This document shows positions 1 through 25,330 of a DNA stretch of 64,000 nt, in pieces (position 1 is the first letter of the stretch; each line of letters begins with the position of its first letter). The DNA is from Gnetum montanum (Eukaryota; Plantae; Gnetophyta). The position numbers and the translations under genes were made by a program. The DNA is taken from contig MNCI01000596.1 of NCBI GenBank assembly GCA_015680685.1, forward strand, positions 624,612 to 688,611, read 5' to 3'. The notes under the pieces are model-generated. The model had not been told where the DNA came from and ran no database searches. It saw only the letters and a program-made list of their open reading frames with translations.

Positions 1-1509
1 TTGGGCATTTGTGGGATGATAATCCCTTGTGTCATGGTAATCCAAAACGTATTCTGCGAACAGCTCATGCATACCAATCTGTACCAAGGCGCAGAAAAGC
101 ATGTTGGGAGCAGAGCGATCTGGGGGTAACACAATGTTACCTTGCATGTCTCTCCACCGCAGTTGCTCATCTTGATGGAAAACAAAGGTAAAATCCGGCA
201 CATACTCATCGGGATGAGTATATGTGACTTTGAATTGTTGAGGACATGGTTGATTTCGGTTATGCGTATGATCCTGACTTTCTCCTATATTGTCCTTAGG
301 TGAGTTGATTGCATGAGAAGAAGCCATTTCTAATGGTGTGTTAATTTTCCCCGTTATTTATGTTCTTAATTAACTGATTAACCCTAAGGTTCATTTTAAG
401 CTCACAACGATGTGAGTGATATCCCTTATGTTCAATTGGCGTGAAAACACTTAGTCCCCAGCAACGACGCCAATGATGAGTGGCGAGGTACCCCTACACT
501 CAACCATACGAATACGAGCGTGCACGCGCGATCCGGTCGAACTCCGCAGACTAAATGCCTTAACACTACAAGAAACGCTTGGGTTTAATAGTTCGTTGTC
601 TTCCCAGGCTTGCTTGTAAGTGTCACGGTGTATGGTTAAGCAAGTCTGAGGTATGTGATTTTTTTGGTTTATCTTCTAAGCTATGAGAGGAAAGGGTTGA
701 GAAACTAAGCTAACTCTAACTAGTGTCCTAGGTTTAAGTTAACTCGTGTCAGCATCCGTTCCCACTTATCGGAAACACCATGAACTATGCAACTGTGGCT
801 TACCAAACGCTAATCGTCACTAGGATCACCACATGTAACGCAAGTGCTCGAAGTGGTCGTACTGAGGCACCTATTTAGCTTAAGTGTGATAAGCAGCCGA
901 TTCCTTAGCTAGTCGTACACACCCGTGGGTGCTCGTAACTAAGTCGTACTTATCACACGTTCTAGCCTAGCAATGAGTAGCCAATTCCTTGACTAGCCGC
1001 ACACATTGGACTACCACTGGGATTACCAAGCACAGAATCCTGGAATACGCTACTGGGTTACCAAGTAGCCAATGCTCGTAATCAAGTCGTACTCATGCGT
1101 TGCGATAAGCAGCCGATTCCTTGACTAGTCGTACACGTCTGTAGACGCTCATAATCAAGTCGTACTTGTGTGCACTAGGAAAGTAGTAAATAAACAATAA
1201 TATATGAAACCACGTGCTACAAGGTTTATCCAATCAAGTTCGTCTTTATTGCCGTACACAACTTGGGTTCAGGTTACAAGCTGCTCGAATAAAGAGCCGT
1301 TCACTCCAGGACTCCTATTGCGGGCACATGGGAAAAATTCTAACTCTGGAGTGATCAATCTGCCAGAGCTTCACTACTTCTAGCCAGGATTGGGAAATGA
1401 AGGGAGTGCCACCTCTTATTTATAGATATGGCGGCAGACCGCGATATCGCGTATGCGATATCGTAGGGGAAGACGCGATATCGCGGCACATGCAGGTCAT
1501 GTCTCATCA
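1..1509 (-). mobile_element. 5' part of an Athila-type Ty3/gypsy element (element A): 5' LTR 474-1509, PBS 455-472, start of gag running off the window edge
   Basis: LTR bounded by TGATGAG (474) and CTCATCA (1509). Adjacent tccccagcaacgacgcca is the reverse complement of the tRNA-Asp PBS with 2 transitions. Bases 1-470 are the reverse-complement homologue of about 15445-15930. Confidence 0.92.
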
Positions 1510-4050
1510 TTTCCCATGTTGGCATTTTAAAGGATGTTCTTTATGTTCCTTCCTTCAAAGTTAATCTAATAGCTATTAGCAAGCTAGTGTGCCATATGAA
1601 TTGTAAAGTAACCTTCTCCTTTGATTGGTTTAGTATACAAGACCAGGCCTTGAGGAAGATGATTAGAGTAGGTAAAGAAGTGAATGACCTATACCTTCTT
1701 CATCCTTTTACCAAGGTTTCAAATAACACCCATAAAGATCCTTTTCATTCTATATATGTTGTTTCCTCATTTGATTTATGGCATAAATGATAGAAACATT
1801 TTATTAATTGTCACATATTTTATTAATTGAACTCCTACACTGATTTTATCTAATCAAATATCTCATGAAGTTATTTTCAATTGTAAACCTTCCTATTTTC
1901 ATCTTAGAGTTTTTGGATGTCTATGCTATGCTAGTATGCTTCTTGATAAAAGATCAAAATTTGATCCACAAGCTAAAAAATGTGTTTTCCTTGGTTATTC
2001 TTAAGCTCAAAAAGGATACAAGTTATATGACTTGCATATTAAAAAAATCATCATTAATAGGGATGTTGTATTTCATGAAAATATATGTCCATTTCAAATG
2101 GACTACTCACATATGCATTCATTGGTTTTGCCTTGTCTCGTCCCTAATAAACCTATTTCTCTCACTCCTCCATTACCTAAAGTTAAACATTCTTTAGAAA
2201 ATAATGTACCCACTACATCCATTGAACAACCATTAATGGTTGATAATGAACAAACCTACGATAATATGCCTCTATCACATTTTTGATTAAGACTATCCAC
2301 TCACATTCAACATACTTTGAGTTATCTCTAAGATTATGACTCTCAACCTGTTATTCATTCATCAATCACTCCATAATCTTCCTCATCGGCAAGGCCTACA
2401 ATAAGCATCGCTTATCTCATTTCATAATTAGTTTCATATAGAAAACTTTCACCACAACATCAAACCTATTTTGTAGCTATTTCATCTCATATAGTGTCAA
2501 GGAATTTTGCTCAAGTAAGTAAGGATCCAAAATGGCAGGAGGTAATGATAGCAAAGATTTGTCCATTGAAGTCCAATAGTACTTGGACACTTAGTTCTTT
2601 ACCTCATCATACAAGGGCTATTGGTTATAAGTGGATGTTCAAGATCAAATACAAACCTAATGGAATCATTGAGCACTACAAGGTTGGTCTTGTGACTAAG
2701 GAATATACTTAGAAAGAAGGTTTGGATTTTCATGAAACTTTTGCACTTGTCACGAAACTTACTATAGTTAGATGTCTTTTGGTAGTTCCAGCCATTTAAA
2801 ATTACCACCTTCACCAATTGGATGTTAATAATGCATTTCTTAATGATGATCTTAAAGAAGAGGTTTATGTGGCTCTTCCTCCTAGTTTTGATGTGCTAGG
2901 AGAAATGCATGTTTGATACCTTAACAAATCTCTATATGGGCTCAGGCAAGATTTGAGACAATGGTTTCAAAAGCTATCTTTTGCTCTCATTGATGTTGGC
3001 TACACTTAATTAAAGGTTGATCATTTCTCTTCATATGTACAATAGGGGCGTCTTTTACAGCAGTGTTAGTTTATTTAAATGATATCACTATTACTGGAAA
3101 TAATCTTATCTTCCTTGTAGTTCTCAAAAGGTTTCTTCATAGTCAATTTCAAGTCAAAGATTTGGAGCCACTCAAATATTTGTTTAGTATTGAAATTGCT
3201 CACTCTATTAAGGGTATTTATCTTTGACAAAGTTAATTTGTTTGAGATATTCTTAAAGATATAAGTTTTCTTGGTTCATGTCCTTCTTTATTTCCAATGA
3301 AGCAGAATTTAAAGCTTAACAGAATTGATGGACCTTTATTGGAGGATCCATCATTATATTGTCACCTTGTAGTAGGTCTCATCTACCTCACTATCACTCA
3401 TCCACACATTACATATTCAGTTCATACCTTAAATCAATTCTTAGATCAGCCTTGACAACCCCATCTTGATGCAGCTCATAGAATTATTAGATATCTAAAG
3501 AAAGTATTAGGTCAAAGAATTTTACTTTCTTTCTCATGTCCTCTTCAATTACATGCATATTGTGGTTCTGATTTAATTAGCTCCATTGATACTTGTAGAT
3601 TTATTATTAGGTATTGTACCTTTCTTGGAACTTCTTCACTTTCATAGAAATCAAAGAAACAATCCAGTGTCTTTCATTCCTTTGTTGAAGTAGAATATCA
3701 TGCCATGGCTAGTGCTTACTGTGAACTCACTTTTCTTTTCAATCCATTAAACGATCTATAAGTATTTCATCCTCAACTAGCAACTTTATTTTGTGACAAT
3801 AAGGCTACTCTACATATCGGTGCTAATCCAATCTTCCATAAACGAACCAAACACATTGAGATTGATGATCACATTTTTCATAAAAAGATTCAATTTCAAA
3901 TGGTTGAAACAACTTTTGTGTCCACTGCACATCAACTTGTTGATCTTTTCACAAAACCTCTTAGAGCTCTTTTGTTTCAATATTTACTTAGCTAGTTAGG
4001 TGTTTTCAATATCTATATGGGTTTGGTGGGGGGTGGTAGAGAGAGAGATG
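1510..4050 (+). mobile_element. Decayed Ty1/copia pol, interrupted at its 5' side by element A
   Basis: Translated remnants: ILKDVLYVPSFKVNLIAISKL, GAG-pre-integrase SFDLWHK, SH3-like [47 protein letters not shown] and RNase H RTKHIEID. Many stops; integrase core missing; purine-rich tract near 4021-4048. Confidence 0.9.
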
Positions 4051-4881
4051 GATATTTGTATAAATATATGCATTGTGTAAACTTGCAAATAGAGATATGC
4101 AATTACTTTTTTTTGGACATTTAATATTAATAAAATAAAATAAGATCATCAATCCTTAACTTCTTCGAAGAGCTACCCCAAGATCAAGCTCATGTTTCCA
4201 ACTTGAAAAACAAGTATCTTCTGATCACCCTAGCTAATGGTCGCTATGTAATATTAACCGAACATTTTTTCAATAATTATTATTATTATAAAAGTTGATC
4301 TCAACAAGCTACACCTATTCTATAAAATGATGGCCACGTGGATTACAAAATGTAGCCATTAGGTAACGAATAAATCATGGTCCATGACCACACTAAAGGC
4401 AAAGTGGCAAACAATAAGGTCAGGAAAAGCATTACGTTAAGCTCAAGCTTCACCTCCTTTCAAATCCATGCTCATGGGAAACCAAAACAAAACTGGGTTA
4501 GTTTTTGCTTGATGGATTATTGTCGTCCTCGGATTCCAAATACCGCTTCTCTTGGATTCTAAAAACGAGAGTAAATCTTAGGAACGAAAAGCTTCGCTTG
4601 TGATATAAGCAAGGTACAAATGCGCGGAATAGATAAAAGTAGCCAGCGCAGCAAGAAAGGGATAACGCATACTTTTCCATCATTTCCAATTTCGTTTTCT
4701 TTCCAGTTAAAGTATAACAAAATGGGTCAGCAATGGCATCTTTGATAAATCTAAAGCACTCTAATATTATTATTCTATGCTTGCCTGATCTTCTTGGAAT
4801 CCGTGCTTACCTGATCTTCTTGAAATCCGTGGTTGGCGTGCCTGCTGTGGCTGCAGTGGGAATGATGCAGCCGCACAAGAT

Positions 4882-5228
4882 ATGTCTTCTCCGTCCATAG
4901 ATTATGCACAGATGTTAAGTGATCAAAGTGAGGCGTTGAAGAGCGATGTGAGAACAGCCCTAAATGGGATTGGAAAGGCTCATTGGATTGCTGCTGGCTT
5001 AGTGGCTGTGGATTTTGTTCTTGGCAGATTCGATCTCATCTCTTCAAATAAGACAGAGTGTTTAGATCTGCTTGATGAGATGTGTCGCTTAGCAGAATAC
5101 CTTCAACTTTTGAAGCAAAGGAAGGAACAAAAATTTCAAATCCTGAGCATAATGGAGGATGCCCTGCACATGGTCGTTCAAGGATGTGCCCTATGCTTCT
5201 CCCAGGCAAAATCCTCCCCTTGGTACAG
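4882..5228 (+). CDS. NLR-like gene exon 1: N-terminal helical-bundle domain (MLKL/RPW8-like four-helix bundle, inferred)
   Basis: Open frame MSSPSIDY...GKAHWIAAGLVAVDFVLGRFDLISSNKTECLDLLDEMCRLAEYLQLL...SPWYR ending at donor AG|GTGAG (phase 2). Splices in frame to exon 2. Confidence 0.8.
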
Positions 5229-7022
5229 GTGAGCGACAATCTTGTGTCACTTTTTCCATTCTGGTTGCACGAATTTAGTTATTACTGGTAAATGAACTAT
5301 GATTTTTGACTCAATGTATGCTATGCATATCTATGTCAGATTTTTTTCAGGATCTGTACACAAGAGGTACTTGGAAGATCTCGGTCATGACCTTGAAAAA
5401 ACGTATAAACATTTGATGTTCCAAGTCATCATTAGGACTTATAATGCACAAGAACCAATTGAGATTCCTGGGATGGAATTTTACCCCAAACATGCAGGTA
5501 ATATGATCTGATTGAAACCTTGTTATGTAGTATGAGATTAATATGTAAATTTTAGTTTTTAAATTTAACTGGTCTAGACTTATCACAGTGACACCAGTGG
5601 AACAGTTGGAGTTGGAGAACCACAAGAATGTAGTGGTTGTTATTTTACATGGTTTTGGAGGTATTGGTAATACAGGTGAGGGATAATCTTGTGTCACTTT
5701 TAACATTCTAGTTAGACTAATTTAGTTATTACTAGTAAATGAGCTATGATTTTTGACTTTGTATTCTATGCATATCTATATCAGATTTTTTTCAGGATCT
5801 GTACACAAGAGGAAGTTGGAAAATCTCCGTCATGACCTTGAAAAAATGTATAAAAGTCATTATTAGGACTTATAATGCGCAAGAACCAATTGAGCTTCCT
5901 AGGATGGAGTTGTACCCAAAAGATGCAGGTAATATGATCTGATTGAAACCTTGTTATGTAGTATGGGATTAATATGTGAGTTTGAGTTTTTAAATTTAAC
6001 TGGTCTAGACTTATCGCAGTGATACCGGATGGAACGGTAGAAAAGATAGTAGAACAGTTGGAGTTGGGGAGCCACAAGAATGTAGTGGTTGTTATTTTAC
6101 ATGGTTTTGGAGGTATTGGTAATACAGGTGAGGGACAATCTTGTGCCACTTTTTCCATTCTAGTTGTTTTAGACTCATTGCGTTATTACTGGTCAATGAG
6201 CTATGATTTTTGATTCTATGTATTGTATACATATCTATATCAGATTTTTTTCAAGATCTGTACACAAGAGGCACTTGGAAGATCTCCATCATGACCCTGA
6301 AAAAATGTATAAAAGTCATCATTAGGACTTATAATGTGCAAGAACCAATTGAACTTCCTAGGATGGAATTTTACCCCAAAGACACAGGTAATATGATCTA
6401 ATCGAAACCATGTTATGTAGTATGAGATAATATGTAAATTTTAGTTTTTTAAATTTAAATGATCTAAACTTACCGGATGCAACGGTAGAAAAGATAGTAA
6501 AACAGTTGGAGTTGGAGAGCCACAAGAATGTAGTGGTTGTTATTTTACATGGTTTTGGAGGTATTGGTAATACAAGTGAGGGACAATCTTGTGTCACTTT
6601 TTCCATTCTGGTTTTTTAGACTAATTTAGTTGTTACTGGTAAATGAGCTATGATTTTTGACTCTATGTATTGTATGCATATCTATATCAGATTTTTTTCA
6701 GGATCTGTACACAAGAGGCACTTGGAAGATCTCCATATGACCTTGAAAAAAATGTATAAAAGTCATCATTAGGACTTATAATGTGCAAGAACCAATTGAG
6801 CTTCCTAGGCTGGAATTTTACCCCAAAGATGCAGGTAATATGATCTGATCGAAACCTTGTTATGTAGTATGAGATTAATATGTAAGTTTTAGTTTTTAAA
6901 TTTAACTGGTCTAGACTTCTCGCAGTGATACCAGATGGAACGGTAGAAAAGATAGTAGAACAGTTGGAGAGCCACAAGAATGTAGTGAATGTTATTTTAC
7001 ATGGTTTTGGAGGCATTGGTAA
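5224..7022 (+). repeat. Four tandem copies (about 450 bp) of intron1-exon2-intron2-start of exon3
   Basis: Units start at 5224, 5671, 6123 and 6571. The junction ggtattggtaa|taca(g/a)gtgag joins the P-loop codons to the exon-1 donor. Confidence 0.97.
5340..5497 (+). CDS. NLR-like gene exon 2 (end of helical domain and linker)
   Basis: CAG acceptor ending at 5339 and donor G|GTAAT at 5498. Reads RFFSGSVHKRYLEDLGHDLEKTYKHLMFQVIIRTYNAQEPIEIPGMEFYPKHA in frame with exon 1. Confidence 0.8.
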
Positions 7023-7158
7023 AACTACCATTGTGGATGCCGTGTATGCAAAAGTAGATGACATTTTTGAAATTCAAGTGAGACCTTCCACCAGCACAGA
7101 TGGTCAAGGAATTTATACATCATTATTTATCAGGCATTATTTATTAAGCATGATGAAG
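6926..7158 (+). CDS. NLR-like exon with the only intact NB-ARC P-loop; remainder of NB-ARC absent
   Basis: VIPDGTVEKIVEQLESHKNVVNVILHGFGGIGKTTIVDAVYAKV, with Walker A at 7003-7029. The 3' boundary (candidate GTAAC donor) is tentative. Confidence 0.7.
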
Positions 7159-7424
7159 GGTAACAGATTAAGGTTATTGCTTTTTTACCTAGTTCGGAAA
7201 TAATTCAATTCATTTAATGATAGCAATGAAAAACTTTTTTGTACATATTTTATTTATCACAATCACATGTTTATGAAACATTTGTAAGTTGTAATGGATA
7301 CCTTACTGAGGAATTGAACCAAACATTTCTATTTTCATCGTGGATATGTTGGGTGCTGTACACTTTTGAGGAAATAGCTAACGCTTTTGGCTGAAAAGAC
7401 TTCTTTCCCTTGTTCAACCCCAAA

Positions 7425-7546
7425 CCAAACTATCATTATAGGTTATCGAACATGGTTAAAAGATGAACTTATTATATAGTTATAACCAAACTATCGTTAT
7501 AGAATATCGAACATGGTTAAAAGATGAACTTATTATATAGTTATAA
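7425..7546. repeat. 61-bp intronic tandem duplication
   Basis: ccaaactatc...ttatatagttataa twice, with few mismatches. Confidence 0.93.
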
Positions 7547-8539
7547 GGTATTCATTGTAATTTGAATTCATCACCCTAAATATTTTAAGATATTTTGTGT
7601 TATATTTTAAAACATGTTGCTCGTAAGTATCAATAATCACCAAGAATCCAAGGAGTCATGAAAAACATAAGAATATGAAGCTTCAACCCAACTTTTGGTT
7701 ATTTTTCTTGATATAGATTGAAAAATCGGATTGGATCTGGAAATGGGCAATCTTTTTTATAAATCAGATTGGGAAAATCAGATATAGAAATTTTAGATTT
7801 TGGCTGGCATCCGAATTAGCAATATACAATATATCAAACTTACAAAATCAATTGAAAAAAACACTATTTCATTACATCAAATATCTGATCTGATTTTAAA
7901 ATCGTCAATGTTGTGATTAATGGCAGATTTCTCTCTTGATTCACGAGTGCTTACAAGTTTTAATTTTGTTGATAACATACAATTACTCTGACAGTTCTTT
8001 TAATTACACAATGCTATGTATTAATTACACAATGCTATGTGATGCAATTGCGCTGACAAATTTTGAAAATTGTTCTCTGGAGCAACCATTTTCAAGTATT
8101 TCAAAAATCTGAGTTTCTTTTTACCTGTTTCTTTGGCGGCGTGAAGCGTGCAGAAAAAAAGCTTTTGAAAAGTCAGGAGATTGCACCTTGTTATCATAAA
8201 ACCGTGTTTTTCATGTTTTTATTAAATTAGAGTTAAAATCTCAAATATTCTGATGAATTTCATTTGCTTAAGCTGTGGCAAGATACTTAGCAGGGCGTGA
8301 AGGGCATTTATATGTACGAAGAGACGGTAACTGAGGAGGTATTGACATTGCCAAGCTATAAACTGGACGTCCTCTCTTCTTCACTGCGAATTCTTTCCTT
8401 GGATTTTAAAAATAAACATGGCTATGCGTTCCAAAGCATGAAAGTAGAAGGCGAGTGCAAGGCGGCCTTCAGTAGCCTTAGAATCCCAGAACTTGGATTG
8501 AATGAAGAGAATGCAGTTATTGGCAACGTTGAGAATGAT

Positions 8540-8671
8540 CATGAAAGTTGTTTCATGTCTATAAGAGACTTCACTTTAAAATGGAGTTGTTTAAGGGAGA
8601 TACCGCATGAAAGTTGTTTCATGTCTATAAGAGACTTCACTTTAAAAGGGAGTTGTTTAAGGGAGATACCG
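8540..8671 (+). repeat. In-frame 66-bp tandem duplication of one LRR unit
   Basis: HESCFMSIRDFTLK(W/G)SCLREIP twice, with one mismatch. Confidence 0.97.
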
Positions 8672-8704
8672 CATTGCCTTTTGTCCAACATGAAATCCCT
8701 CGTA

Positions 8705-9920
8705 GTAGAGACCCCCATAAATGGGGCTTCCCATGTCTGGTACATGAAGTAGGAATTGGTAATTATTCCAAGGATCATACTAGAAGTTGGTATTAGAGCA
8801 TTGGATTGGAGCATTTGAGCATTACATTCTACTTGTTTGATGCTATTGATAATTTGATACTACCTAGACTTGAGGGATTATGTTCAATTTTCCTTATAAT
8901 TATGTGCATTGTGATAGATTTGTAAAGTTTGTAATTGAATCTTCTTGTTATTGTTTGGGAAACATCACTTCCAAGAAGAAATTAGTTTAGACTTTAACCA
9001 AAGCCATGGAAGAATTTAGAGGTACCCTTAAGATGATTTTTGATAGATTAGAATAATTGAATATCAAGTATGATGCTTGTGTAGGTCTATCTAGGAGAGG
9101 AGATGGTGTTGAACATTCATTTGGCGATGAAGAAGAAGAATATAAAGATGTAAGAGGATATGATGTGGAGGTTGTTTATTTAATACATGAAAGTGCTAAA
9201 ATCCATGCTCTAACGATTCAAAAAGTGAGACATCCTAGTTCTCATGCTAGATCTTAAAGGGCTCCATCAGTTCATTCATCAAGATCAAGTTTATCAAAAT
9301 GTTTAGATGATGAGGATGAAGCAAGACTTGCTAGGGAATTCACAAGATCAAGTTTATCAAAATGTTTAGATGATGAGGATGAAGCAAGACTTGCTAGGGA
9401 ATTCACAAATGCATTGAGGCTCCCATACATGGAATTGATGTCTTTCAATGACATTGATGGCTTTCATGAATTTGAGATATGGTTAAAGACTTTGAATTGC
9501 ATAATATGCTAGTTCATCTTATGATACTCATTGTTGAATCAAAACTTGAAGGAATGACTTCTATTTGATGGAAGAAGGAATCTAAAGCCTTCTACATGTA
9601 AAACAAAGTCCATGGAATTAAGGGGATGGCTAGTCATGCAATACATATTAAGGTAGAAATATGAGCAATCTAGGCAAAGGTAAGAAACTATTATCAAGCT
9701 AAAACACCTTAGGCAAGACGAGAAGGATGTGAAGAAATTTTATCTTGTGTTTTGCTAACTGTTTCATTTGGTTCAATTGGTGGATTGAAATGATCATAGT
9801 AGAATTTCATATTTCTCGATGGATTGAAGCTATAATATTATTAGAAGTTGATCTTTTATGAACTTCAAATCCTAGATGAGACTTATGAATTGACCAGTAA
9901 AGCTAAAAACTTAGTGGCTA
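8705..9920 (+). mobile_element. Decayed LTR-retrotransposon fragment (Met-tRNA PBS plus gag remnant)
   Basis: TGGTATTAGAGC at 8788-8799 (one transition from the tRNA-iMet PBS). Downstream gag-like text FEIWLK..KLEG..LRQDEKDV. Contains an exact 63-bp tandem duplication at 9280-9405. Confidence 0.7.
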
Positions 9921-12900
9921 TGAAGTGCATAGTTTGCCTTTCCTAACAATGATTGACATAAGGTATGTTGTGTTAAAGGGCCTTCCTAAAAGCATAGGGG
10001 CTTGTACTTCTTTGAAGACTTTAATTTTTTCTAATTGTCTAGAGCTTGTTGGATTGCCATGGGCTATTGCGAATGCATCATCTTTAGAAGCATTCTATAT
10101 GGAAAATTGCTTCAACTTGCTTGATCTTCTAAATAACATTGGAGGATTGGTGTCCCTATGCTTTCTAACCATGTGTGGATGCACAAATTTGAAGTATCTA
10201 AGCATAACATTTTGCCAGTTATCCCCTTTATAGGTATTAGATCTTCATTATTGCTTCTAATTGCATGCGAATTAGGTGGATATTTTTTTTTGCAAATGTA
10301 ATCACTAAAAGTGATTTAGTTTGAAGGATGTCCTCCACTTATTAAAAGATGTGAAGAGTTGTACCAAGATGGTATAAATTTAAAATGTATATATTAAGAC
10401 TATATATTATAGATAAATGTTATTAACATGATTAAACTAAACAAACTTTATATTAAGCATTAAATAATACTAATATAAAAATGGAAGCTTTTATTTTCAT
10501 GGTTTCACAGCCTTACAATAGTATGGTTGTAGTAATAGAAATATTATTGGATGTTGCTAAACATTTTAGTAGTAGTAACATGTGATCAAAAAAGCATCAA
10601 ATAAGAAACTATAAAGAAATTAAATAAAGATTGATTTATTCATAGTTTAATACCTTTTCAATTTTCAATATTCTTGATTGTAACCAATTTCTCTTTGAAA
10701 GTAAAATAATCAAATCAACAAGTGTTTAAAAAGTCAAAAAAATAAAAATAAAAATTTAAATGAATTGGGTTAGGATATTTTAAGGATCACTATAAATAAG
10801 CAAGTTGGGATGACTCATATTTAAAGTTCAGAAAAATTATATCTAAAACTATTGATTTCTTTCCAAAAATAAAGTTTTTTTTATAAAAGTCATGTTGACT
10901 AAAGTCAAGTTGGTAAAAATTCTAATTTGATGACTAATTGTTGAACTAACAATCTATGGTTGAATTGAAAAACTATGAAATCAACACATTACATGATTTA
11001 CATGGATAATAAAAACAAATGAAATCTAGAGAACCAACTTGCAAACAACTTCTTTAACTTAATGAATATGTTAGAAATTCATGAAATGTATAAATAAATA
11101 TTATATCCTAGGTATATTTAGCAACTACCTTTTATATTTACATCATAATATAGATTTTCCAACTTGAAAAAGCATATTAAGAGTTTTTCAAATATATTTT
11201 TATCAAGAAGGAGCTGCTTACTAGATGTGGTGGCCACATCAAGATTGATGTAGAACATGCAAAGGGGATGATTCAACTATGAAAAACATAAATTTTCCAT
11301 GATTTTGAAAATGTAATATCTCTACTATTCAAATGAGTTTCAAGTTAACCTAGGGCTTATTAAGCAACTCATTTTACAATAGATAAGCATGTAAAATTTT
11401 AGATATTGAAATTTATTTGATAATTCAAATATAGCTAGCAAAACTAGCCTTAGATAAAACTATTCACATTTCAAAATATAAATTGATAACTTATGAGATG
11501 AATATCTTAACAATATAAAGTAAGTAAATACTTATTATGAAGATCTAATGATAGTTGAAATTTTTTACACAACTAAAAAGTTTTAAATGATGGCTTGATT
11601 TGAGTTTATTTGATAGTTGAAATTTATTACACAACTATAACATCAAATGTCATTATTTAACTTCCTAAAATGTAGTGAAAGTTGATGGCACCTAAAAATC
11701 TTGATAAAATGACTAAATTCAAATATGGAATTAAAGTTGAAACTATTTGAAGATGAGATACAACAATAATTATTAATGAATAATGAATTTTAAATGAATA
11801 AATGGAAGATAATGGATAAAATTTATAATTAAATTAGTCTTCATTCATGAGAGTTACTTGTGAGTTATTTATACCATAATATGCTTATAAATTTATAGGC
11901 ATTTGCTAGGCCATGATAACTATTAAATGACGAAGGATTTTTTTTCATGGAAATAAGGTTGAAATCTGAAGGGACATGAGAGGTTGGGGCTATTTTTCAA
12001 TTGCATCCATCCATAAATATTTTAATAAAATTTTTTTATCTATTTTCTCCTATGTGCAGTAAAAAAAATTTAAAAAATGATATAACTTTTATCTTACTCA
12101 AAATTCTAACATTATCTTCATTTAATATTTGTATTTGATTTTATCTTTACAATTTTTCTTCAAGTTTTTATACTTTCTAATGTAAACATAGCCTTTAATT
12201 ACCTTGAATTTTTGCTTATTGAATTAATTTCTTGTTCTTATTTAAAGTCCACAATATGAGCAAGTAATTTGAGAAAAGGACAATGAGTCCAATTGCATCC
12301 TAGAACTAACAATAAGATTGTTGATTTGGTATCTCAAAGTTTTAGGTTTGATTTTATAGTACAATACTATGTTATAAAAATTCTAATTTGACAATGTCTT
12401 GGGAAGGGGTTAAATATTATTAAAAAATTATTTCGGGTTCCAACACCTCCCTTTCCTAAATATCTTTTTTATCTAAATGTTATTATGATAATAAAATTTT
12501 AATGTACACGAAATCATAAATTAAATGCATGGTGGGATTCAAAGTCAGGATTGCATGTACTCTATACTATATAACTCACACTTAAACTTGCTAGTGATAT
12601 GTGGCTTAAGTGATTAGCTAATTATCTTATTAGGTAAGAGGTTATTAGTTTGAGTCATACTTATTATATTCTATAATTCTTTTAAAGTAGCATGTTGGCT
12701 ATAAATCTTGAGATATAGTTCTAATAAAATTTCATATAACAATTATAATGAGATGTTTTAGATGTACTCTAGAATTTTATACATGATTAAAGAAAATCAT
12801 TTTCTTTATTCTTTCTAAATATAAAGGGATTATTGGAATTGAATGCTTTTAGCTATATGTATGTGTAGGTCAAATAGAGAACACAATGTTTTAATAGAAC

Positions 12901-14467: not shown

Positions 14468-15444
14468 TGATGAGACGCGATTCGCATGAGTTGCGATATC
14501 GCATACGTGATATCGCGTCGTCCCCTACAATGTCGTGTATGCCATATCACGGTCTGCCGCCACATCTATAAATAAGAGGCGACACTTCCTTTATTTCCCA
14601 TCCTAGGCTAGAAGTAGAGAAACTTTGGTAGATTGATCACTCTAGAGATAGAATATTTTCCATGTGCATGTAGTAGGAGTCCCCAAGTGAACGGATCTTT
14701 ATTTGAGCAACATTGTACCTGAATGCAAGTTTCGTACGACAATAAAGACGAGCTTTGTGGATAAACCTTGCAGTGCATGGAATAGGATTTATTACTTGTT
14801 ATTTATTACCTGTTATTTCCTACCTATTATTTATTACCCTGCAGTAGCGCTGCATGAGTACGACTTGATTACGAGCATTTACGAATGTGTACGGCTAATC
14901 AAGGAATTGGCTGCTCATCGCGATTAGATTCTCTCACCCTCAACTCATAGAATGTGGAATGAGTACAACTTGATTACAAGCATCTAAGGATGTGTACGGC
15001 TAGTCAAGGAATGGATGCTCATTACGCTTAGGCTAGTTAAGTGCCTTAGTACGACCACTTTAAGCATGTGCGTTACGTGTGGTGATCCCAGTAACGATTA
15101 GCGTTTGGTAGTCGCGGTTGCATAGTTCAGGGTGTGTACGGTAAGTGGGAATGGATGCTGACGCTAGTTAATTTAGACTTAGGTCATTAGTTAGAGTTAG
15201 CTAGTTTCTCAACCCTTCACCTCAATAGCATAGAAGAAAAACATAAAAAGATATAAAAATCATATACCTCGGACTTACTTAACCGTACACCGTGACAAAC
15301 ACAAGTAAGTCTGGGAAGACAACGAATGATTAAGCCCAAGTGTTCCATGGGGCATGTAGGCACTTAGTCTATGAAGTTCGATCAGATCGCATGTGCTACG
15401 CTTGTTTCATATGGTTGAGTGTAGGGGTACCTCGCCACTCATCA
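14468..15444 (+). repeat. 5' LTR of element B (977 bp)
   Basis: 7-bp terminal inverted repeat, GATATC palindrome array, TATAAATA near 14567 and AATAAA at 14741. Confidence 0.96.
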
Positions 15445-15445
15445 T

Positions 15446-15463
15446 TGGCGCCGTTGCCGGGGA
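15446..15463 (+). promoter_or_regulatory. Primer-binding site complementary to the tRNA-Asp 3' end
   Basis: TGGCGCCGTTGCCGGGGA 1 nt after the LTR, the typical Athila PBS. Confidence 0.95.
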
Positions 15464-15589
15464 CTAAGTGTTTGTGCGCCGAATAGAACATAAAGGATAT
15501 CATTCACATCATTGTGGGCCTTAACGAACCTTCGAGTTAATCAAACAAAAAAAAATTTATATAATGGTGAATTAGAACACCGATAAAAA

Positions 15590-18500
15590 ATGTCTTCTTC
15601 TCATAAGAGTAACTCACCACCTAAAGACCATAAACGAGACAGTCGGAAACATAAAACACATAACCAAAATCAGCCAGTACCTCAACAATATAAGATGACA
15701 TATACTCATCCTGATGAGTATATCCCTAACTTTACTTTTATTCTCCATCAAGATGAACAGATGAGCTGGAGAGATTTGCAAGGTAACATTGTGTTACCTC
15801 CAGATCGATCAGTCCCAAACATGCTTTTTCATGCCTTGGCATAGATAGGCATGACTGAATTATATGTTGAATACGTTGTAGACGATTTCAACATGAGGGA
15901 TTATTATCCCACAGATGCCCAACGTATGAGGGACTTAAGGCAAGAGAGTCAACATACACTGCTGAAGGGCAAAGGTCTGCACGTCCTTAGCAAAATAGGA
16001 GATGAGGAACCCCTTATAATGGGTTCTTTAGCAAACAATGTTCCCCCTCCTAACAATGATGAGGAGGTTGGGTATCAGAACCTACGATCAACGATACATA
16101 ACCATGGTTCTGATGCCCATGAACACCAACTATTCACAGAGGGAACAACCACTCATGCTAAGGACGAGCACTTAGATCGTCACCATGATCGGGGCCATAG
16201 CAGCTGAAGAGAAGGCAAGAAACATCGTCATGACGATGGTTCCCCTTCTTCTTCCCCTTCTTCACATCACTCACCCTCTCCTTCTACATCTGGGTGCAGT
16301 CACCATGAACATAAAGGTGAGGATAAAGGTAGATAAAAGGAGAGACCTCGACGGGAAAGTCGAGAGAGAGGACAAGGGCAAGGACATAGGGAGAGTAGGG
16401 AACAACGTAGACATCACAGGCATCATGAAAGAGATGACCATGATGAGCCCCTACTCGCAACCCGAAGTATGCTTAACATAACGAAGGTAGTTAGGATTCC
16501 CACAAGGCATTTAAAAGATAGTCGGATCAAACGATTAGACATGAACAATATCCCACGATTTGAAGGAGGATACAATGAAAATCCGCAAAATCATTTACAG
16601 GCATTCCACTATGCATGTGCCTTGTAGAATATAGAAAATGAGTGGCAAAAACTTAAGTTGTTTCCAAGGACACTCACCAAAGAAGTAGAGAGTTGGTATC
16701 GGTCCTTAGAAATAGAAACCATCAGGAGGTGGAGTACGATGTTAGAACTATTCAACGAAAAGTATCAGACATACTCCAGAGTGTCCAATTTGCATAAGCA
16801 GATCCAAGTATGGAAACAAGGTCATCACGAACCCTTGGATGCTGCCATGACCCACTACTACACATTGTTACATCGTTGCCCAGGCCATGGGTACGCTTAG
16901 CGGGATCAACTTCGCCACATTGTGGATGGGCTAAGGCATGGAACTAGAAGAACCCTTGGAACTTATGCCCAAGGGAGACTCTCACAACTTAGAGCCCATG
17001 AAGTACATCACTTGTTGGAGCAAGTAGCAAAAGAAGAAGGTGAGCTACGAAAAAGAAAAAGTGTGGAAGAATACAACCGTGATCCCTCTCTTCGAAAGAA
17101 GGGAGTGAAATTTTGNNNNNNNNNNNNNNNNNNNNNNNNNNNNNNNNNNNNNNNNNNNNNNNNNNNNNNNNNNNNNNNNNNNNNNNNNNNNNNNNNNNNN
17201 NNNNNNNNNNNNNNNNNNNNNNNNNNNNNNNNNNNNNNNNNNNNNNNNNNNNNNNNNNNNNNNNNNNNNNNNNNNNNNNNNNNNNNNNNNNNNNNNNNNN
17301 NNNNNNNNNNNNNNNNNNNNNNNNNNNNNNNNNNNNNNNNNNNNNNNNNNNNNNNNNNNNNNNNNNNNNNNNNNNNNNNNNNNNNNNNCACCACCAACAC
17401 AACAGTACCCTTATTGGCAACCTAATCCTTATGGTTATTATGTGTAGTAGCCGATTTTCCCAGGTGACTCTATGGGTCACATAAACCCTCCATGTTACTA
17501 CCGAGTTTAGGAGTATTTTAGGACTCCTTCTCCTTTGGGAAACACTCCATACCCACACTATCCTCCAAATCCATCCACATCTCTTGTGCCAGTAGTCCCA
17601 CCGCCAATTGCTCCAACAAAGCCTAGAGTAATTCCCACTCAACCACGACAACCCAACATTGTGAGGGCTCCCAATCCTCAATTCTCAGTTGGTTCTAACA
17701 ATCATACACCAAAAAGACCTTTCCTTAGGACCAACAATCCAACCAAACCCTTGCCTTCACAAGCGGTTGAGCATCTAAACACCTCCATACCAAATAAGGT
17801 TTCGGGAAACCCTTCGACAGAGAAATCGCGCCCAATGCATACAGTTATTTTAACACATACAGTAATCGACTGGATCAAGGTCGACCACCTTCCAAAGAAA
17901 TTATCGGATCCGGGAGTCCCCCTAGTTTACCTCTAATTCGCTAGGAATGAACCCCATAAGGTTCTCCTTGACTCAAGTTTCGGAGTCAACTTAATTTCAT
18001 AAGAACTGTATAAAACCTGGAACTTGCCTCCACTCAAGAAGAGAAATATTGGCTTAGAGCTGGCTGACTAGTCCATCACTATTCCTTTGGGATAGGTTGA
18101 GGACATTGTTACCACTATGGGTGGTTGATCATATCCAGCCGATTTCCTAGTGATCCAAATAAACAATGACAAAGGGGATTTCCCAATTATAATGGGAAGG
18201 GCATGGCTGAATACAATTGATGCATGCCTAGGAATCCGCAATCTTTTCCTAGAAGATCCAAGACAAATACTTTTGAAAAAATTGAGAGGAAAAGAGTTCC
18301 ATGCATCGCATATAGTGACACAGGGTGTCATTTTGTGCAGAAATCATGGGTGATGCGAAGTTTAACATTGCCTGCATGCAATTGGTGTGCATAGGATATT
18401 GACATACAAAAGTGCCTATATGCGGCAGCCACACAACAAGAAAACACCCAGTAGTTGATGGCTGATAAATAGAACAACTCAACAACCTGCATGGAACTAG

Positions 18501-21440
18501 CTGAGGGAATAACTAGTGCTTACATTGAAAGCATAGACGTATTAGAGTAAGTCTGTTGCCAACTTCCAACCGTTAACTCCAAAAACATTAATTTGGGGAA
18601 GTTGGAGATTCCTGAGGAGTTTAAACAAGAGCCCCTAGATTTAAAACCATTGCCCACTGGTTTGGAATACATGACCCTTAAAAATGGAAAATCAATAATC
18701 ATCAATGCAAAGCTCGCACCCAAGCAAGAAGAAAGTTTGCTAAAGGTGATAAACAAGTGGTCAACAACCTTTGCCTGGTCATACCTTGAACTAATCGGAA
18801 TAGATCCTAGGATATGCTAGCATAGGATTTACACAGATCCCTCAATGAAACCTCGAAAGCAACCCCAGAGGTGATTGAACCCAAAGTTAAAAAAAATAGT
18901 GAAAGAGGAGATAGAGCAGCTTCTCAAGGTTGGGTTCATTTACCCTATTGCTGATAGCTAGTGGGTTAGTCCTCTTGTAATTGTATCGAAAAAAGGAGGT
19001 AAATGGAGGGTATGTATAGATTTTAGGCTATTAAATATGGCAACATTCAAAGATCACTTCCCATTGCCATTTGTTGACCAAGTATTAGACACTATAGCAG
19101 GGCATCACTATTACAGTTTTCTGGATGGGTATAGTGGGTACAACCAAATACGAATTGCGCCAGAAGACCAAGCCAAAACAACATTCACCAGTCCTTGGGG
19201 AACATTTGCATACAAACAAATGCCTTTTGGCTTGTGCAATGCAGCTGCCACATTCCAACGATTAGTTCTAAGAATATTTCAACAGCAAATAGGTAATGGA
19301 GTAGAAGTCTTCATGGACAACTTCTCCACTTATGGGATGAGCTTTGATCAAGCCCTTGACTGGTTAGAGCAAGTATTGAAATGATGTGTTGAAACCAACC
19401 TAAAGCTTAACTGGCAGAAGAGCCATTTGATGGTTCAAGAGGGCATCGTACTGGGGCATAAAATTTCACAATCAGGAATTGAGATGGATCCAGAAAAAAT
19501 TAAAGTCATCCAAGGAATTACCTGACAACCAGAAACCGTTAAAGACATTAGGTCATTTCTTGGACACACTGGCTACTATAGGAGGTTTATCGAGCACTTC
19601 TCCAAAGTTGTCAAGATGTTGGTGGAATTAACAAAAAAAGATGCACCATTTGAATGGACCAAGGAATGTGAACAAGCATTCCAAACTCTCAAACCGAGGC
19701 TTGTGGAAACTCCCATTCTACAAGTCCCTGACTGGTCCAGGCCATTCCATATCATGACCGACACATCTAATTATGCCTTAGGAGCTGTACTGACACAATT
19801 AGATGAACAAAAATGACCTTATTACATCCATTGTGCCAGTAAGAGTATCACCGGTGCACAACTCAACTACATGACTACAGAAAAGGAATTAATGGTTGTA
19901 GTGTTTGCACTGGACAAATTTAGGCACTATGTATTTGGTTACAAAGTATACATCCGTACAGATCATAGTGCAATTAGGTTCCTTATGAACAAGCCAATAG
20001 TTAGCCCACGTATCATACGTTGGTTGGTAATTCTTCAGGAGTTCGATTTAACAATAGTAGACCGCAAAGGCACCGAGAATGTAGTCGCCGATCACCTATC
20101 TTGGTTGTGTTGGGACAACAAAGAGGATGAATATGCTATATCTAATCATTGTCCTAATGAAACCCTCTTTACTGGTGTAGTGAATGATCAACCCATGGAA
20201 ATAAATTGGTATAGTAGCATTCTTACTTATCTCACTTCCCAAAAAATACCATAGGGGTTGGACTTTAGGAAGAAACAATAGTTTCTTCACAAAACCAAGT
20301 ACTTCATGGAAATCAAGGGACAACTCTATAAAGTCTATCCTGATTGCTTGGTTCGATGGTGTGTGCCTGATCAGGATCAATTAAAAGTTCTCTAAGATGC
20401 TCATGAGGGCCCCTGTGGGGGTCATTATGCTGGGAGATGAACGGCTACCAAGGTCCTGCTTGCAGGATATTATTGGCCAACACTATTTCGGGATGCCCAT
20501 CATTTCACCCAATCCTGTGAGCACTGCCAACGTGACGGTGGAATGATTGCTAGAATGGAGGGTCTAGAACAATGGATTCAACCTTTGGAATCCTTTGATA
20601 TCTGGGGAATAGATTTTATGGGGCCTATTACGCCGATGTCCAACGAAAAGGCATATATCATCGTTGCTGTTGATTACTTAACAAAATGGGCTGAACCAGC
20701 CATAGTAACAGATTGCACATCATCTACGGCTGCACAATTTGTACAACAACAAATCGTAAATAGGTTTGGTGTGCCACATGCACTCATCTCGGATAATGGA
20801 ACACATTTCATGGGTGCAACCTTTTGCAAAATTATGCAATGCTTAGGGGTTGAGCATAAATTGACCACACCTTACCACCCCCAAGCTAATGGCCAAGCCG
20901 AGGTTACTAACCGGGAGATTACCAGAATATTAAAGAGAATGATTAGCAAATTTAGGCGAGACTAGAGCACAAAACTAAACGACACTCTCTGGGAATACCG
21001 ATCCACTTGGAAGCTCCCTCTAGGCTATTCTCCCTATGAGTTAGTGTACAGGAAACTACCAAAGCTCCCCATACAGAATGAGCTCTGTATACTATCCATG
21101 GCTTGTGACCTCCATCTAGACCTTGACTTAGCATAGAAACAACGGTTGGAAACTCTGAACGTGCTAGACGAGAATAGATTGGTTGCACTATCATTAAATG
21201 AGTTGCATAAAGCACACAGTAAATAGTGTCATGACTTAAGAATTCGAAGGCTTAGGTACCAACCGGGAGACAAGGTCCTTTATTGGAATCCCACGCATGT
21301 ACCTCAGTGTACAAAATTTCAAACATTGTGGGAAGGACCCTATATTATTCATACAACCTTCCCCTCTAGAGCCATGATGATATACAAACCTAACAGCCCA
21401 GATAAATGATTATTGGTTAACGTACAACAAACAAAACCTT
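15590..21440 (+). pseudogene. gag-pol of element B with stops and frameshifts
   Basis: gag LFPRTLTKEVESWYRSL; PR KLSDPG..LLDS..IIMGRAWL; RT KDHFPLPFVDQVL/FLDGYSGYNQI/MPFGLCNA/VFMDN; RH TTEKEL..TDHSA; INT WGIDFMGP/ISDNGTHF/YHPQANGQAE and W.GPY. Confidence 0.95.
17116..17388. other. Assembly gap (273 N)
   Basis: Run of N. Confidence 1.
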
Positions 21441-23455
21441 TTCGTGAACCCGCAACAACCAGTACAAGTTACACACCCACTAGTGGGCAACCTCGCTCAT
21501 TATTTCGGATCTCTCCCTTACAACTCAGTCATGGGGGAGATGGAAACCTATGCTAATCATATGGGGCCCTCAGTTTTTTTTTATTTTTGTTTTACACGTT
21601 TTTGTCTTACACCTTTTTGTTTTACAAATTTCTTTATGTTTTTGTTTTACAACATCGTTATACTTTTTCCATTTTGTGTGTGTGTGTGTGTGTGTGTTCC
21701 ACCATGTAAGTTTTTCACCCAATAAGTGTTCAGAATGATGGTATGAACTGTTTTCATATTAATTGCTAATGTTTGATTTTTACCTTTAAGTCACAATGTT
21801 GATACTAAGGTATGTTTCTTTTGATATGGCAGGCAATGAGACCACTTCATCCATCCATCCACCAGTTTCTATGGTCTCTCTTGGCTTGCAAATGTATAGT
21901 CGCCTTCTAATAAGGACTTAAACGAATCGGTGACTGGGCATTTCTTAAACTAAGGAAGGACTCAAGGATTGCAAAGGGTGTGACTTCAAGAGAAGTTGAG
22001 GCTTTTGTGTTAGTCATTCTCTTAGGTGCTTGGATGTTTTCTTCTTGAGTTTTCTTGTCGTTTCGATGTTATCCAATTATCAGAAGCTGAGTCAATAAAA
22101 ATAAAAAGTCTTTGCATGGTGTGGTTCTCACGCATAAAAACACAAAACATACAAAAAAAAAGAAAAAAAAGAAAAAAAGAAAAAAAGTGAGAATTCAAAG
22201 CACACCCCTTAGACAAAATAAAACTTGGGCTACAAGCACTGGTTATGGAACCAAAAGTGTTCCCTCTAACTAAGGCCCTTCTCGCTTCCCATTCCCTACT
22301 TTGTTTCATCAGAATGGTGGTGGCTCTTTGGAGATGCATTCTTATTATTCAAGTGGTTGGTTTGGCCGAATGCATTGATGCAAATTCACTGGATGTGGTT
22401 GGTTTGAAGCTGGACTTGGAATGGGATTTGCAAAGTCACATTAATCATGAAACACACAAGGGGCTGTACACCACCTTATTCTTGAGATTCCATTCCATCC
22501 TCTTCTCTCCACCCTTCTCCCCATTGTTCACCTCATTGCCGGTTGTATCATTCGTGTACATATTTTGGTTGATGCATTGTTTTATTTTTGGTAAATTCTT
22601 ATGGTTAAGACTTTAACTCTTGTTCCAAATGACATTCCTAGAGCCTACGGACTCTTTGAATGCAGGTTTGTCAGGGCATTCAGGACATGGGCCTGCTTTG
22701 GGGAGGACCCACTGACATTCCTATTTGGAGCATTAGTTAAATTCTTTCCCCTAACATTTTGCAATTAATTTTCTTTTGTTCATTACCATCTTGACACCCA
22801 TTTCATCAATGCTATAGTTGTCCCTTTTTATCTATCTTTCTTACTCCCTTTCTTTCTTCATTCTAACGCTACCGGAGGTTCACGATTAGTCATGGGGGTA
22901 CGGGGCCTGATTTTTTTGATTTTCTCCTAGCCCTGAATTTTTTGATTTTCTTCCTAACCCCTACACCTTTGGTAGTCATCATTAATATATCCCCAAATCC
23001 GTATTAGCCATATCACAACCTAGCCAATGGATCTACACCAAAGCAAGGTATCAATTACATGATGATTCATTTACCCTTGCTAATATAAGATTGTGTTGTG
23101 TGTGCAGATGGCGATCATACAAACAACGGATTGGATCTGGAGCAAACACTTGGAATGGAGCAGCGTTGAAGCAGCTATGCAAGGAGCAAGGTCGATGGTG
23201 TAGTTATGGATAAACAACAAAGATGTAATCTTGGCGTTGGCAGTAGCAACACTTCTTTCTCTCTCTCTTTCTCAGCTGCCAACTAAGGCCTGATGTCATT
23301 GTAATAAGGTGTTCACCCTTGTTGTCATGAACACCAGTTTTTTCAAGTCTTGTAATGATGATCCGTTAACATGTCATCCCATTAGTTCCATTCCCCTCAA
23401 TAATTCCATACCTTCCCAATATTATTGTAAGGAACTCGAGGACAAGTTTTCATTC

Positions 23456-23468
23456 AGTCATGGGGGTA
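23456..23468 (+). promoter_or_regulatory. Polypurine-tract-like AGTCATGGGGG before the 3' LTR
   Basis: Abuts the 3' LTR; the same motif occurs at 21527-21537 and 22888-22898. Confidence 0.85.
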
Positions 23469-24478: not shown

Positions 24479-24483
24479 ACTTC

Positions 24484-25330
24484 CTACCACTTTGCTTCAT
24501 TATACTTAGTATTGATTTTAATGTTAGATTTTGGTTGCATGATCTAGATCTTCTACATGGTTACGTTCATGTTTTCCTTGGCTAATCATTTGATCTCCAA
24601 TTTAGCTTACTTCATGTGTTCTTGAACGTGGAGGATGCTTTCTTTAATTTGTTCTTTATTTTATTTCATCTTTGTTAACCTTTTGTTTTTTGATGCTATG
24701 CTATTATTCTCCTCTATAATGTGATGATGGGCTTAAGATGGACATGTGATGTTGGTTAGACCTATGAAGCATCCCTAATTTCCTTCTCTTTCTTCCACTC
24801 AACTTACTTCTACTTGGTAATTAGACAAGTAAACTTATTATTGCAAAATTGGCTAAGCTAATTAGGAGCCATGAATTACACTAGGTCATTTAGTGAGACA
24901 TGAAGTTGGGTCATAACTTCTTCATGTAGCTTTTGTTAGAGTTGGATCATAAATTCTTATTTTAGCTTTTGTATATCTAACTTGGCTTATTATAATTAGA
25001 ATTCAAACAATAATAGTTTACCTTTTGTAGTGATTAGCTTAGATTACAAAAGTGTGACATCTTCAAGAATGTCAAATAAGGTCTTCATTATCTTCCTAGT
25101 ATGAAGTAGTTTGTCTAATCCTTTCTTATGTTTTTCTATGATCATGCTCCATTCAAGTATGATGCTCATTCCTATGAATACTTGAATATTTTCAATAACA
25201 CCAAAATTAGAAATTGGTATCATAGGAACATTAAGTGCCTTGTTGATATGATCAACAAGCACTACTACAACAATCTACTATCCCTCATGTAGCATCATCA
25301 TGATGATAGCTCCTTCTCTTGATTTCAAGG
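24484..25330 (-). mobile_element. Old minus-strand retroelement gag-like remnant, probably continuing at about 13800-14462; target of elements B and C
   Basis: Minus-strand ORF 25044-25262 (NFGVIENIQVFI...LEDVTL) resembles a gag start. The TSD of B shows the two flanks were once contiguous. Confidence 0.4.

What the first reader, a model, noticed from the sequence alone, without database searches (positions are those of the whole stretch)
5224..7029. NLR exon cassette quadruplicated with mutually cancelling frameshifts, giving P-loop-dead modular exons
Seen: the breakpoint lies at TTGGTA, shared by the exon-1 end and the P-loop. It converts GFGGIGKT to GFGGIGNT and supplies a phase-1 donor where the original was phase 2 (net -1). 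Duplicated exon 2 copies lack 14 nt (tataaa[catttgatgttcca]agtc), so the total is -15 and the spliced frame stays open. Exons 5589-5675, 5785-5928, 6020-6127 and 6244-6387 read through as ...GIGNT-DFFQDLYTRGSWKISVMTLKKCIKVIIRTY..., with about 24 novel shifted-frame residues. All of these exons are phase 1-1, so skipping any of them preserves frame into the intact P-loop exon at 6926. Unit 3 lost its exon-3 acceptor (about 6470) and unit 4 exon 2 has a TGA at 6738. Inference: either selection for an open frame after duplication, or a one-in-three coincidence that was later amplified.
Basis: partly seen in the sequence, partly recalled or inferred. Interest (0 to 1): 0.7.

Follow-up and report, generated by a model that had tools for sequence, protein, structure and literature searches.

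The report
Frame-rescued exon repeats in broken NLR
A plant immune-receptor gene, likely from a gymnosperm, carries four real tandem copies of an exon block whose two frame errors cancel and whose new splice site is used, but the gene has lost most of its nucleotide-binding domain, so it is likely a transcribed remnant rather than a working modular receptor.

Summary
The array is real: four 447-452 nt units at 5224-7022, about 90% alike. The frame arithmetic holds, and contigs from three RNA-like runs of other organisms contain the new P-loop-truncating splice junction.

The exon at 6926 keeps its P-loop, but NB-ARC homology ends at about 7067. About 285 profile positions (kinase-2 to MHD) are absent from the whole window. 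The LRR is interrupted by about 1.2 kb and ends early, and the N-terminus looks about 90 residues short. The RNA contigs do not show the skip into 6926. They read on into the intron after 6387 (TAA at 6399, 333 aa) or include the exon with TGA at 6738.

One random deletion reopens the frame 11-19% of the time. Evidence for selection is weak: 10 of 18 substitutions are synonymous (p about 0.02-0.03), not significant for the frameshifted part or across all copies.

Best reading: a compensated exon duplication, probably tolerated or selected while the gene worked, in an NLR that is now broken. A functional truncated helical-domain-plus-repeat protein is not excluded (about 0.18).

The parts
4778..4831 (+). 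26-nt tandem duplication upstream of exon 1; without one copy, ATG 4733 would be in frame with exon 1
   Evidence: whether 4733 was the true start is untested
4882..5228 (+). Exon 1 from the first in-frame ATG; helical N-terminal domain of a gymnosperm NLR and kinase family; phase-2 donor; about 90 aa shorter than most relatives
   Evidence: splice 5228>5340 in X6, X7, X11
5224..7022 (+). Four-unit tandem array (447/452/448/452 nt): exon-1 end, intron 1, exon 2, intron 2, 5' part of the P-loop exon
   Evidence: zero-difference DNA contigs across junctions 1 and 2 and the unit-3 deletion
5340..5497 (+). Original exon 2 (158 nt, phase 2 to 1), retains the 14 nt
   Evidence: splice 5497>5589 in 4 of 4 RNA runs
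5589..5675 (+). Truncated P-loop exon, copy 1 (GIGNT, new phase-1 donor, 21-nt in-frame deletion)
   Evidence: new-donor junction in X11 and X7
5785..5928 (+). Exon 2 copy with 14-nt deletion; about 24 shifted-frame codons, then the original frame
6020..6127 (+). Truncated P-loop exon, copy 2
   Evidence: new-donor junction in X6 and X7 (the copy cannot be assigned)
6244..6387 (+). Exon 2 copy 3, open; 6-nt in-frame insertion at 6346 in X6 and X7
6388..6690 (+). Retained region: intron 2, acceptor-less exon 3 copy, weak donor, intron 1 copy; in-frame TAA at 6399-6401
6691..6834 (+). Exon 2 copy 4, -1/+1 indels, TGA at 6738
   Evidence: TGA also in X11 and X7 contigs
6926..7067 (+). Exon with intact P-loop (GFGGIGKTT); NB-ARC homology ends here; read-through stop at 7201-7203
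   Evidence: same continuation in X6, X7, X11 contigs
8279..8701 (+). Remnant of the post-NB-ARC and first LRR exon (profile 588-648), with a 66-nt tandem duplication
8702..9900 (+). About 1.2 kb interruption of the LRR region, possibly a decayed retrotransposon gag fragment (ends approximate)
   Evidence: joints across it in 4 of 4 RNA runs, mostly non-GT..AG ends; Retrotrans_gag E=0.079, below cut-off
9901..10395 (+). LRR remnant; stop at 10231-10233 and further stops

Best explanation
This is a transcribed NLR gene that lacks most of its NB-ARC domain, in which a duplicated exon block shifted the frame by creating a new splice donor, a 14-nt deletion restored it, and the rescue was likely kept while the gene still worked and later broke. 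Shown: a 452-nt block from the exon-1 end to the P-loop is duplicated; the junction places the exon-1 donor after a truncated P-loop (phase 1 into an exon that expects phase 2); the 14-nt deletion removes the only stop of the shifted frame; the new donor is spliced; the NB-ARC core is gone. Inferred: one duplication, one compensation, then unequal crossing-over, which keeps every added unit in frame automatically; a period of purifying selection on an NLR with a lengthened linker; then loss of the unit-3 acceptor, the TGA, the NB-ARC deletion and the LRR insertion, before the sampled organisms split. Today it likely yields a stop-containing transcript and no receptor.
For: Array and frames. 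New donor in X6, X7, X11; introns 5719-5771, 5931-5983 and 6143-6195 have zero depth in those three runs while the DNA run covers them. NB-ARC loss: Pfam matches only profile 3-49 of 248; a profile of 32 relatives jumps from position 302 to 588 with nothing between in six frames of the whole window; none of 47 long relatives aligns its NB-ARC core by tblastn. The lesions are shared by other organisms: read-through past 7067 in X6, X7, X11; retained 6388-6690; TGA in X7, X11. Exon copies are about as diverged as intron copies (exon 2 0.105 vs intron 1 0.105; exon 3 0.053 vs intron 2 0.069; the exon-2 figure is inflated by copy 4 being out of register). Past selection: 10 of 18 substitutions synonymous in the four open exons, against 5.5 expected, p=0.023 (0.032 given no stop); 0 of 4 in the dead copies; shifted part 4 of 6 synonymous in the new frame and 0 of 6 in the old.
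Against: The selection signal is weak and partly post hoc: shifted part alone p=0.096; exon-3 copies 1 of 4; all copies together 13 of 33, p=0.115; exon 2a, which should be constrained, has 1 of 7. The ancestor was a majority consensus with no outgroup. The order of events (array before or after the NB-ARC loss) is not determined. Exon 1 and the first 333 codons are stop-free, and the locus is held by RNA-like runs of four organisms, which also fits a functional truncated protein. No full-length transcript was seen; contigs are short and repeats blur assignment.
Confidence: 0.45

Rival explanations
1. Pure coincidence in a gene that was already dead or unconstrained: one deletion happened to reopen the frame and was then copied with the units.
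For: 11-19% of single deletions in exon 2 reopen the frame, and it needs to happen only once. The chance that the four exons pick up no stop is 0.45. All-copy synonymous excess is not significant (p=0.115). The gene region has many other tandem duplications (26, 61, 21, 66, 63 nt). Exon and intron divergence are similar. Conifers are expected to hold many NLR pseudogenes (PMC11171428, passage).
Against: Synonymous excess in the open exons, p=0.023-0.032, with bias toward the new frame rather than the old. Splicing of the new junctions is efficient.
Confidence: 0.33
2. The truncated product is functional: intron retention after 6387 gives a 333-aa protein of a helical N-terminal domain plus two 77-84 aa repeats, acting as a stand-alone cell-death module or a regulator of paralogous NLRs, in the manner of RPW8/HR repeat proteins.
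For: Open frame from 4882 to TAA 6399 along the splice path seen in RNA contigs. In-frame 6-nt insertion in X6 and X7; only 1 listed difference (synonymous, 6297) upstream of the stop against 10 downstream (coverage uneven). About 67% of tested CC-type domains of non-flowering plants cause cell death alone (PMC11218826, passage). RPW8/HR repeat number controls NLR activation (PMC6684095, abstract).
Against: The N-terminus looks truncated: conserved HW at residue 34 against a median of 127, with 1 of 27 relatives under 60. Six upstream ATGs lie in 4600-4881, three giving out-of-frame ORFs that overlap ATG 4882, and one X6 contig spans 4633-4989. A stop followed by a spliced intron and a long 3' region is a typical nonsense-mediated-decay target (recalled). 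Exon 2a shows no constraint. No RPW8 Pfam match.
Confidence: 0.18
3. One reading: phase 1-1 cassette exons are skipped or included to tune a full-length NLR.
For: All 16 subsets of the four open exons keep frame into GIGKTT. At 85% likeness X5 and X6 each had one contig placed 6382>6922 (table 5c).
Against: That path ends at 421 aa, soon after the P-loop. The NB-ARC core is absent. The X6 contig was not listed at 95% (X5 was not re-laid). The region 6388-6690 is retained.
Confidence: 0.03
4. The array or its lesions are assembly artefacts.
For: The best DNA run holds only 0.45 of sampled words; no contig spans the whole array.
Against: Zero-difference DNA contigs span junctions 1 and 2 and the unit-3 deletion; junction 3 is spanned in X6, X7, X11; units differ by about 9%.
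Confidence: 0.01

Closest known systems
[quoted passage not shown] 2022, PMC8935012; abstract and passages read)
   Same: Two frame-breaking events cancel and leave a short stretch of novel residues. The paper finds them mostly in genes under relaxed selection, which fits here.
   Different: The first event here is a duplication junction that changes splice phase, the pair spans an intron, and the compensated block was then amplified. That survey covered vertebrates and insects; the word 'splice' had 0 occurrences in its main text.
Gymnosperm NLRs and kinases with this helical N-terminal domain (Ginkgo Gb_18504, Gb_36230, Gb_13430; Cryptomeria and Taxus proteins)
   Same: Exon-1 domain up to 44% identical among the top hits; linker, P-loop and LRR are collinear.
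   Different: The full-length NLR relatives have a complete NB-ARC (229-361 aa from P-loop to the post-NB-ARC motif in 19 relatives) and usually about 90 more N-terminal residues. I did not test the relatives for internal repeats of this kind.
CC(Cbl-N)/CC(MAEPL) NLRs of non-flowering plants (Chia et al. 2024, PMC11218826; passages read)
   Same: Helical N-terminal domain on an NLR of a non-flowering plant; weak MLKL_N-like signals.
   Different: Membership not shown: the fold search was uninformative and the MAEPL profile was not available to test.
RPW8/HR repeat proteins of Arabidopsis (Barragan et al. 2019, PMC6684095; abstract read)
   Same: The predicted 333-aa product would be a helical domain followed by a variable number of repeats, with no NB-ARC.
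   Different: No RPW8 Pfam match; repeats are 77-84 aa exon pairs derived from linker and P-loop, not 14 or 21 aa; no function shown.

Membership tests
Functional NLR (NTD-NB-ARC-LRR) | P-loop GxxGxGK[TS] | tested here: met
   GFGGIGKTT in exon 6926; NB-ARC E=2.7e-6. The three upstream copies read GIGNT.
Functional NLR (NTD-NB-ARC-LRR) | NB-ARC core (kinase-2, RNBS-B, GLPL, winged helix, MHD) | tested here: not met
   Profile positions 303-587 unmatched in six frames of the whole window; Pfam profile 3-49 of 248 only
Functional NLR (NTD-NB-ARC-LRR) | LRR domain in one reading frame with the NB-ARC | tested here: not met
   LRR remnant at 9901-10395 with stops, separated by a 1.2-kb interruption; the longest path ends at 421 aa
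Gymnosperm helical-NTD NLR/kinase family | Sequence homology of the N-terminal domain | tested here: met
   108 hits at E<=0.001; 8 of 10 looked up are named Ginkgo, Cryptomeria or Taxus proteins
CC(Cbl-N)/MLKL-like four-helix bundle | Four-helix-bundle fold | tested here: inconclusive
   Exon-1-only model pTM 0.35, three long helices; no Foldseek hit; best Z 6.5, generic; MLKL_N in 4 of 33 alignment members, best E 0.0022
CC(MAEPL) | N-terminal MAEPL motif | not tested
   No profile available; none seen by eye at ATG 4882
Compensatory frameshift pair | Two frame-breaking events that together restore the frame, with novel residues between | tested here: met
   Phase change plus 14-nt deletion, about 24 shifted codons; junction present in RNA contigs
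Compensatory frameshift pair | Lies in a translated, conserved coding sequence | tested here: inconclusive
   Weak synonymous excess; translation cannot be tested here
RPW8/HR repeat proteins | RPW8 domain | tested here: not met
   No RPW8 family among the Pfam hits for the window ORF, 13 relatives or 33 alignment members
RPW8/HR repeat proteins | Repeat-dependent activation of a partner NLR | not testable with these tools
   Needs in planta assays
Symmetric cassette exons (alternative splicing) | Exons of equal flanking phase that are skipped in some transcripts | tested here: inconclusive
   Phase 1-1 is met. Apparent skips (6127>6691) cannot be assigned because the first 28 nt of three exon-2 copies are identical.

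The most novel reading that the evidence does not exclude
A gymnosperm NLR was converted into a stand-alone helical death or regulator domain carrying exon-encoded repeats of a dead P-loop plus a newly born frameshift peptide. The repeat count is set by unequal crossing-over, and the C-terminus by a conserved retained intron. This would be an independent origin of the RPW8/HR 'domain plus variable repeats' design from NLR parts.
Probability: 0.17. Interest if true: 0.72.

Novelty: new variant of a known kind. Interest (0 to 1): 0.33.

Why it matters
It is a clear, RNA-supported example of a compensatory frameshift pair in which one 'frameshift' is a splice-phase change made by a duplication junction, and it shows how one compensation lets an exon block amplify in frame. 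That is a neat route to new peptide sequence in NLRs. In this allele the gene is broken, so the biological consequence is probably small. It would matter more if the 333-aa product is made and constrained, because it would be a new kind of truncated NLR derivative in non-flowering seed plants.

Tried and rejected
1. No whole genome is held for the window, so paralogues could not be read in full.
2. Word-based homologue searches gave nothing for exon 1 and only 4 distant angiosperm LRR proteins for the LRR.
3. No listed run is on record as RNA. I treated X5, X6, X7 and X11 as RNA because they hold GT..AG joints and lack three introns that the DNA run covers. I laid 5 of 24 listed runs. X1 may be the source sample and is not independent.
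4. X11 has no cover over parts of exon copies 2 and 3, and X6 none at 6737; no conclusion drawn.
5. Indel test (in-frame indels in open exons against introns; Fisher p=0.012 and 0.048): rejected as circular, because open exons are defined by lacking frameshifts. The 21- and 6-nt events also sit in short repeats, and the count of 6 intron indels counted one event twice.
6. The 6830>6016 'goes back' joint was not taken as circular RNA: exons 6020 and 6926 differ at 1 of their first 43 nt.
7. Structure: the exon-1-only model was poor (pTM 0.35) and both fold searches were uninformative. The spliced domain was not folded, so the fold is left open.
8. One search used wrong exon bounds (corrected); one search printed nothing (repeated).
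9. Earlier-findings look-ups returned nothing.
10. Literature searches listed no paper on such a compensated exon array in an NLR; they cover open-access text only, and most hits were seen as listings. No supplements were read; Supplementary Data Set 1 of PMC11218826 could bear on the family assignment.

Full report
WHAT IS THERE. Tandem Repeats Finder gives four copies of a ~447-nt unit at 5224-7022. The units are 90-92% alike, and there is no other copy in the window. Each unit holds the last five bases of exon 1, intron 1, exon 2, intron 2 and the 5' part of the P-loop exon. The exon-1 domain has 108 relatives at E<=0.001; 8 of 10 looked up are Ginkgo, Cryptomeria or Taxus proteins, both NLRs and kinases. 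The host is therefore likely a gymnosperm (inference).

FRAME ARITHMETIC. Exon 1 (4882-5228) ends in phase 2 and exon 2 (5340-5497) in phase 1. At each junction the P-loop is cut after TTGGTAA and joined to TACAG|GT, giving GIGNT and a phase-1 donor. Read in the shifted frame, the original exon 2 is open for about 24 codons and then stops; the 14-nt deletion removes that stop and returns to the old frame. All 16 subsets of the four open exons reach GIGKTT; all 16 paths through exon 6691-6834 stop at TGA 6738. Because the deletion is in copies 2-4, one event explains all of them, and any later unit is in frame automatically (inference). Enumerating single deletions in exon 2, 217 of 1485 (up to 10 nt) to 1245 of 6425 (up to 50 nt) reopen the frame, and 11% when short deletions are weighted more.

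IS IT REAL AND SPLICED? I laid 5 of 24 listed runs. DNA run X1, possibly the source sample, has zero-difference contigs across 5654-5796, 6106-6284 and 6323-6546. X6, X7 and X11, from three other organisms and three studies, have contigs across the third junction, so the array is not an artefact and is shared. These runs are only guessed to be RNA, but they hold GT..AG joints and have zero depth in three introns that X1 covers. The new donor is used in 3 of 3 at 95% likeness: 5675>5785 in X11 (depth 188), 6127>6691 in X6 (165), and both kinds in X7 (8-11). The left side is specific to the truncated P-loop exons, which share only 5 nt with the exon-1 end. The right side cannot be assigned to a copy, as the first 28 nt are identical in three copies. 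The splice 5497>5589 is in 4 of 4 runs at 85%.

First, the NB-ARC. Pfam matches only profile positions 3-49 of 248. A 1015-position profile from 32 relatives matches positions 96-302 up to 7059, resumes at 588 (8279), and finds nothing for 303-587 in six frames of the whole window. None of 47 long relatives aligns its NB-ARC core. Loose ends at 7067 (X6) and 7107 (X1, X6, X7) show related sequences that continue differently. Read by hand they look like NB-ARC coding sequence, so these are likely two deletion breakpoints (not tool-tested). Contigs of X6, X7 and X11 run through 7067 as the window does, so the loss is shared. Second, the LRR. It is interrupted by about 1.2 kb that related contigs in 4 of 4 runs lack (weak gag similarity, E=0.079), and it stops at 10231. 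A TAG at 8288 may be exonic or intronic. Third, the 5' end. The conserved HW is at residue 34 against a median of 127 in 27 relatives. Six upstream ATGs exist, three overlapping ATG 4882 out of frame, and a 26-nt duplication puts ATG 4733 out of frame. Fourth, the transcripts. Where the unit-3 acceptor is lost, contigs read into the intron (6323-6530 in X5, X6, X7; 6388-6530 and 6545-6714 in X11), giving TAA at 6399 and 333 aa. The TGA at 6738 is present in X11 and X7.

SELECTION. Against a majority-rule ancestor, with each observed change type reassigned at random, the four open exons have 10 synonymous of 18 changes (5.5 expected; p=0.023, 0.032 given no stop). The shifted part has 4 of 6 synonymous in the new frame (p=0.096) and 0 of 6 in the old. 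The shared-frame part has 5 of 8 (p=0.038), the exon-3 copies 1 of 4, dead copies 0 of 4, and the original exon 2 has 1 of 7. All copies together give 13 of 33 (p=0.115). Exon and intron copies are about equally diverged. This is a hint of a past period of translation in the new frame, not proof. I rejected the indel test as circular.

MECHANISM AND RIVALS. Most likely (0.45): duplication, compensation, amplification under some constraint, then decay. Chance in an unconstrained gene is close behind (0.33). Both make today's gene non-functional as a receptor. A functional 333-aa product (0.18) is the interesting alternative: the frame is open exactly along the splice path seen, and many non-flowering CC-type domains act alone (PMC11218826, passages). 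The short N-terminus, upstream ATGs and likely NMD (recalled) argue against it.

COMPARISON. It works like a compensatory frameshift pair (PMC8935012, abstract and passages) combined with tandem exon duplication. The twist is that one member of the pair is a splice-phase change. The predicted truncated product resembles RPW8/HR repeat proteins in design (PMC6684095, abstract) but has no RPW8 match. A four-helix-bundle fold is suggested only weakly and was not shown. Conifer genomes are expected to hold many NLR pseudogenes (PMC11171428, passages). Eight open-access searches listed no report of such an array in an NLR; other hits were seen as listings only.

VERDICT. Observation mostly right, interpretation partly right. 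New variant of a known kind; interest 0.33.

Noticed in passing
window 4778-4831, 7423-7546, 8000-8040, 8540-8674, 9274-9408: Five further short tandem duplications (26, 61, 21, 66, 63 nt) in or near the same gene; the locus seems prone to them. The 66-nt one is in frame in the LRR-side exon.
   Followed up: partly
window 6834 to 6020: A joint that 'goes back' 815 nt in X6, X7 and X11. Probably the 6834>6926 splice with a G at 6933, but an extra unit or back-splicing is not excluded.
   Followed up: partly
window 7068-7107: A 40-nt island between two loose-end points, probably a retained piece of NB-ARC between two deletions.
   Followed up: partly
window 8702-9900: Interruption of the LRR with weak retrotransposon gag similarity; its left edge is also in an X6 contig (8618-8859, no differences).
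   Followed up: partly
proteins P0006, P0008, P0018, P0019: The same unannotated helical N-terminal domain is fused to protein kinases in Cryptomeria and Taxus (MLKL-like layout) as well as to NB-ARC-LRR; no Pfam family covers it at cut-off.
   Followed up: no
window 6835-6925: This intron is partly retained in X11 (depth 75) but not in X6 or X7.
   Followed up: no
window 1-4000, 14468-26982, 35746-36820 with 57042-58063, 43520-47938, 61164-63883: The rest of the window appears to be decayed LTR-retrotransposon sequence (reverse transcriptase- and integrase-like ORFs judged by eye; repeats), with an N gap near 17120-17390. No second NLR was found.
   Followed up: no
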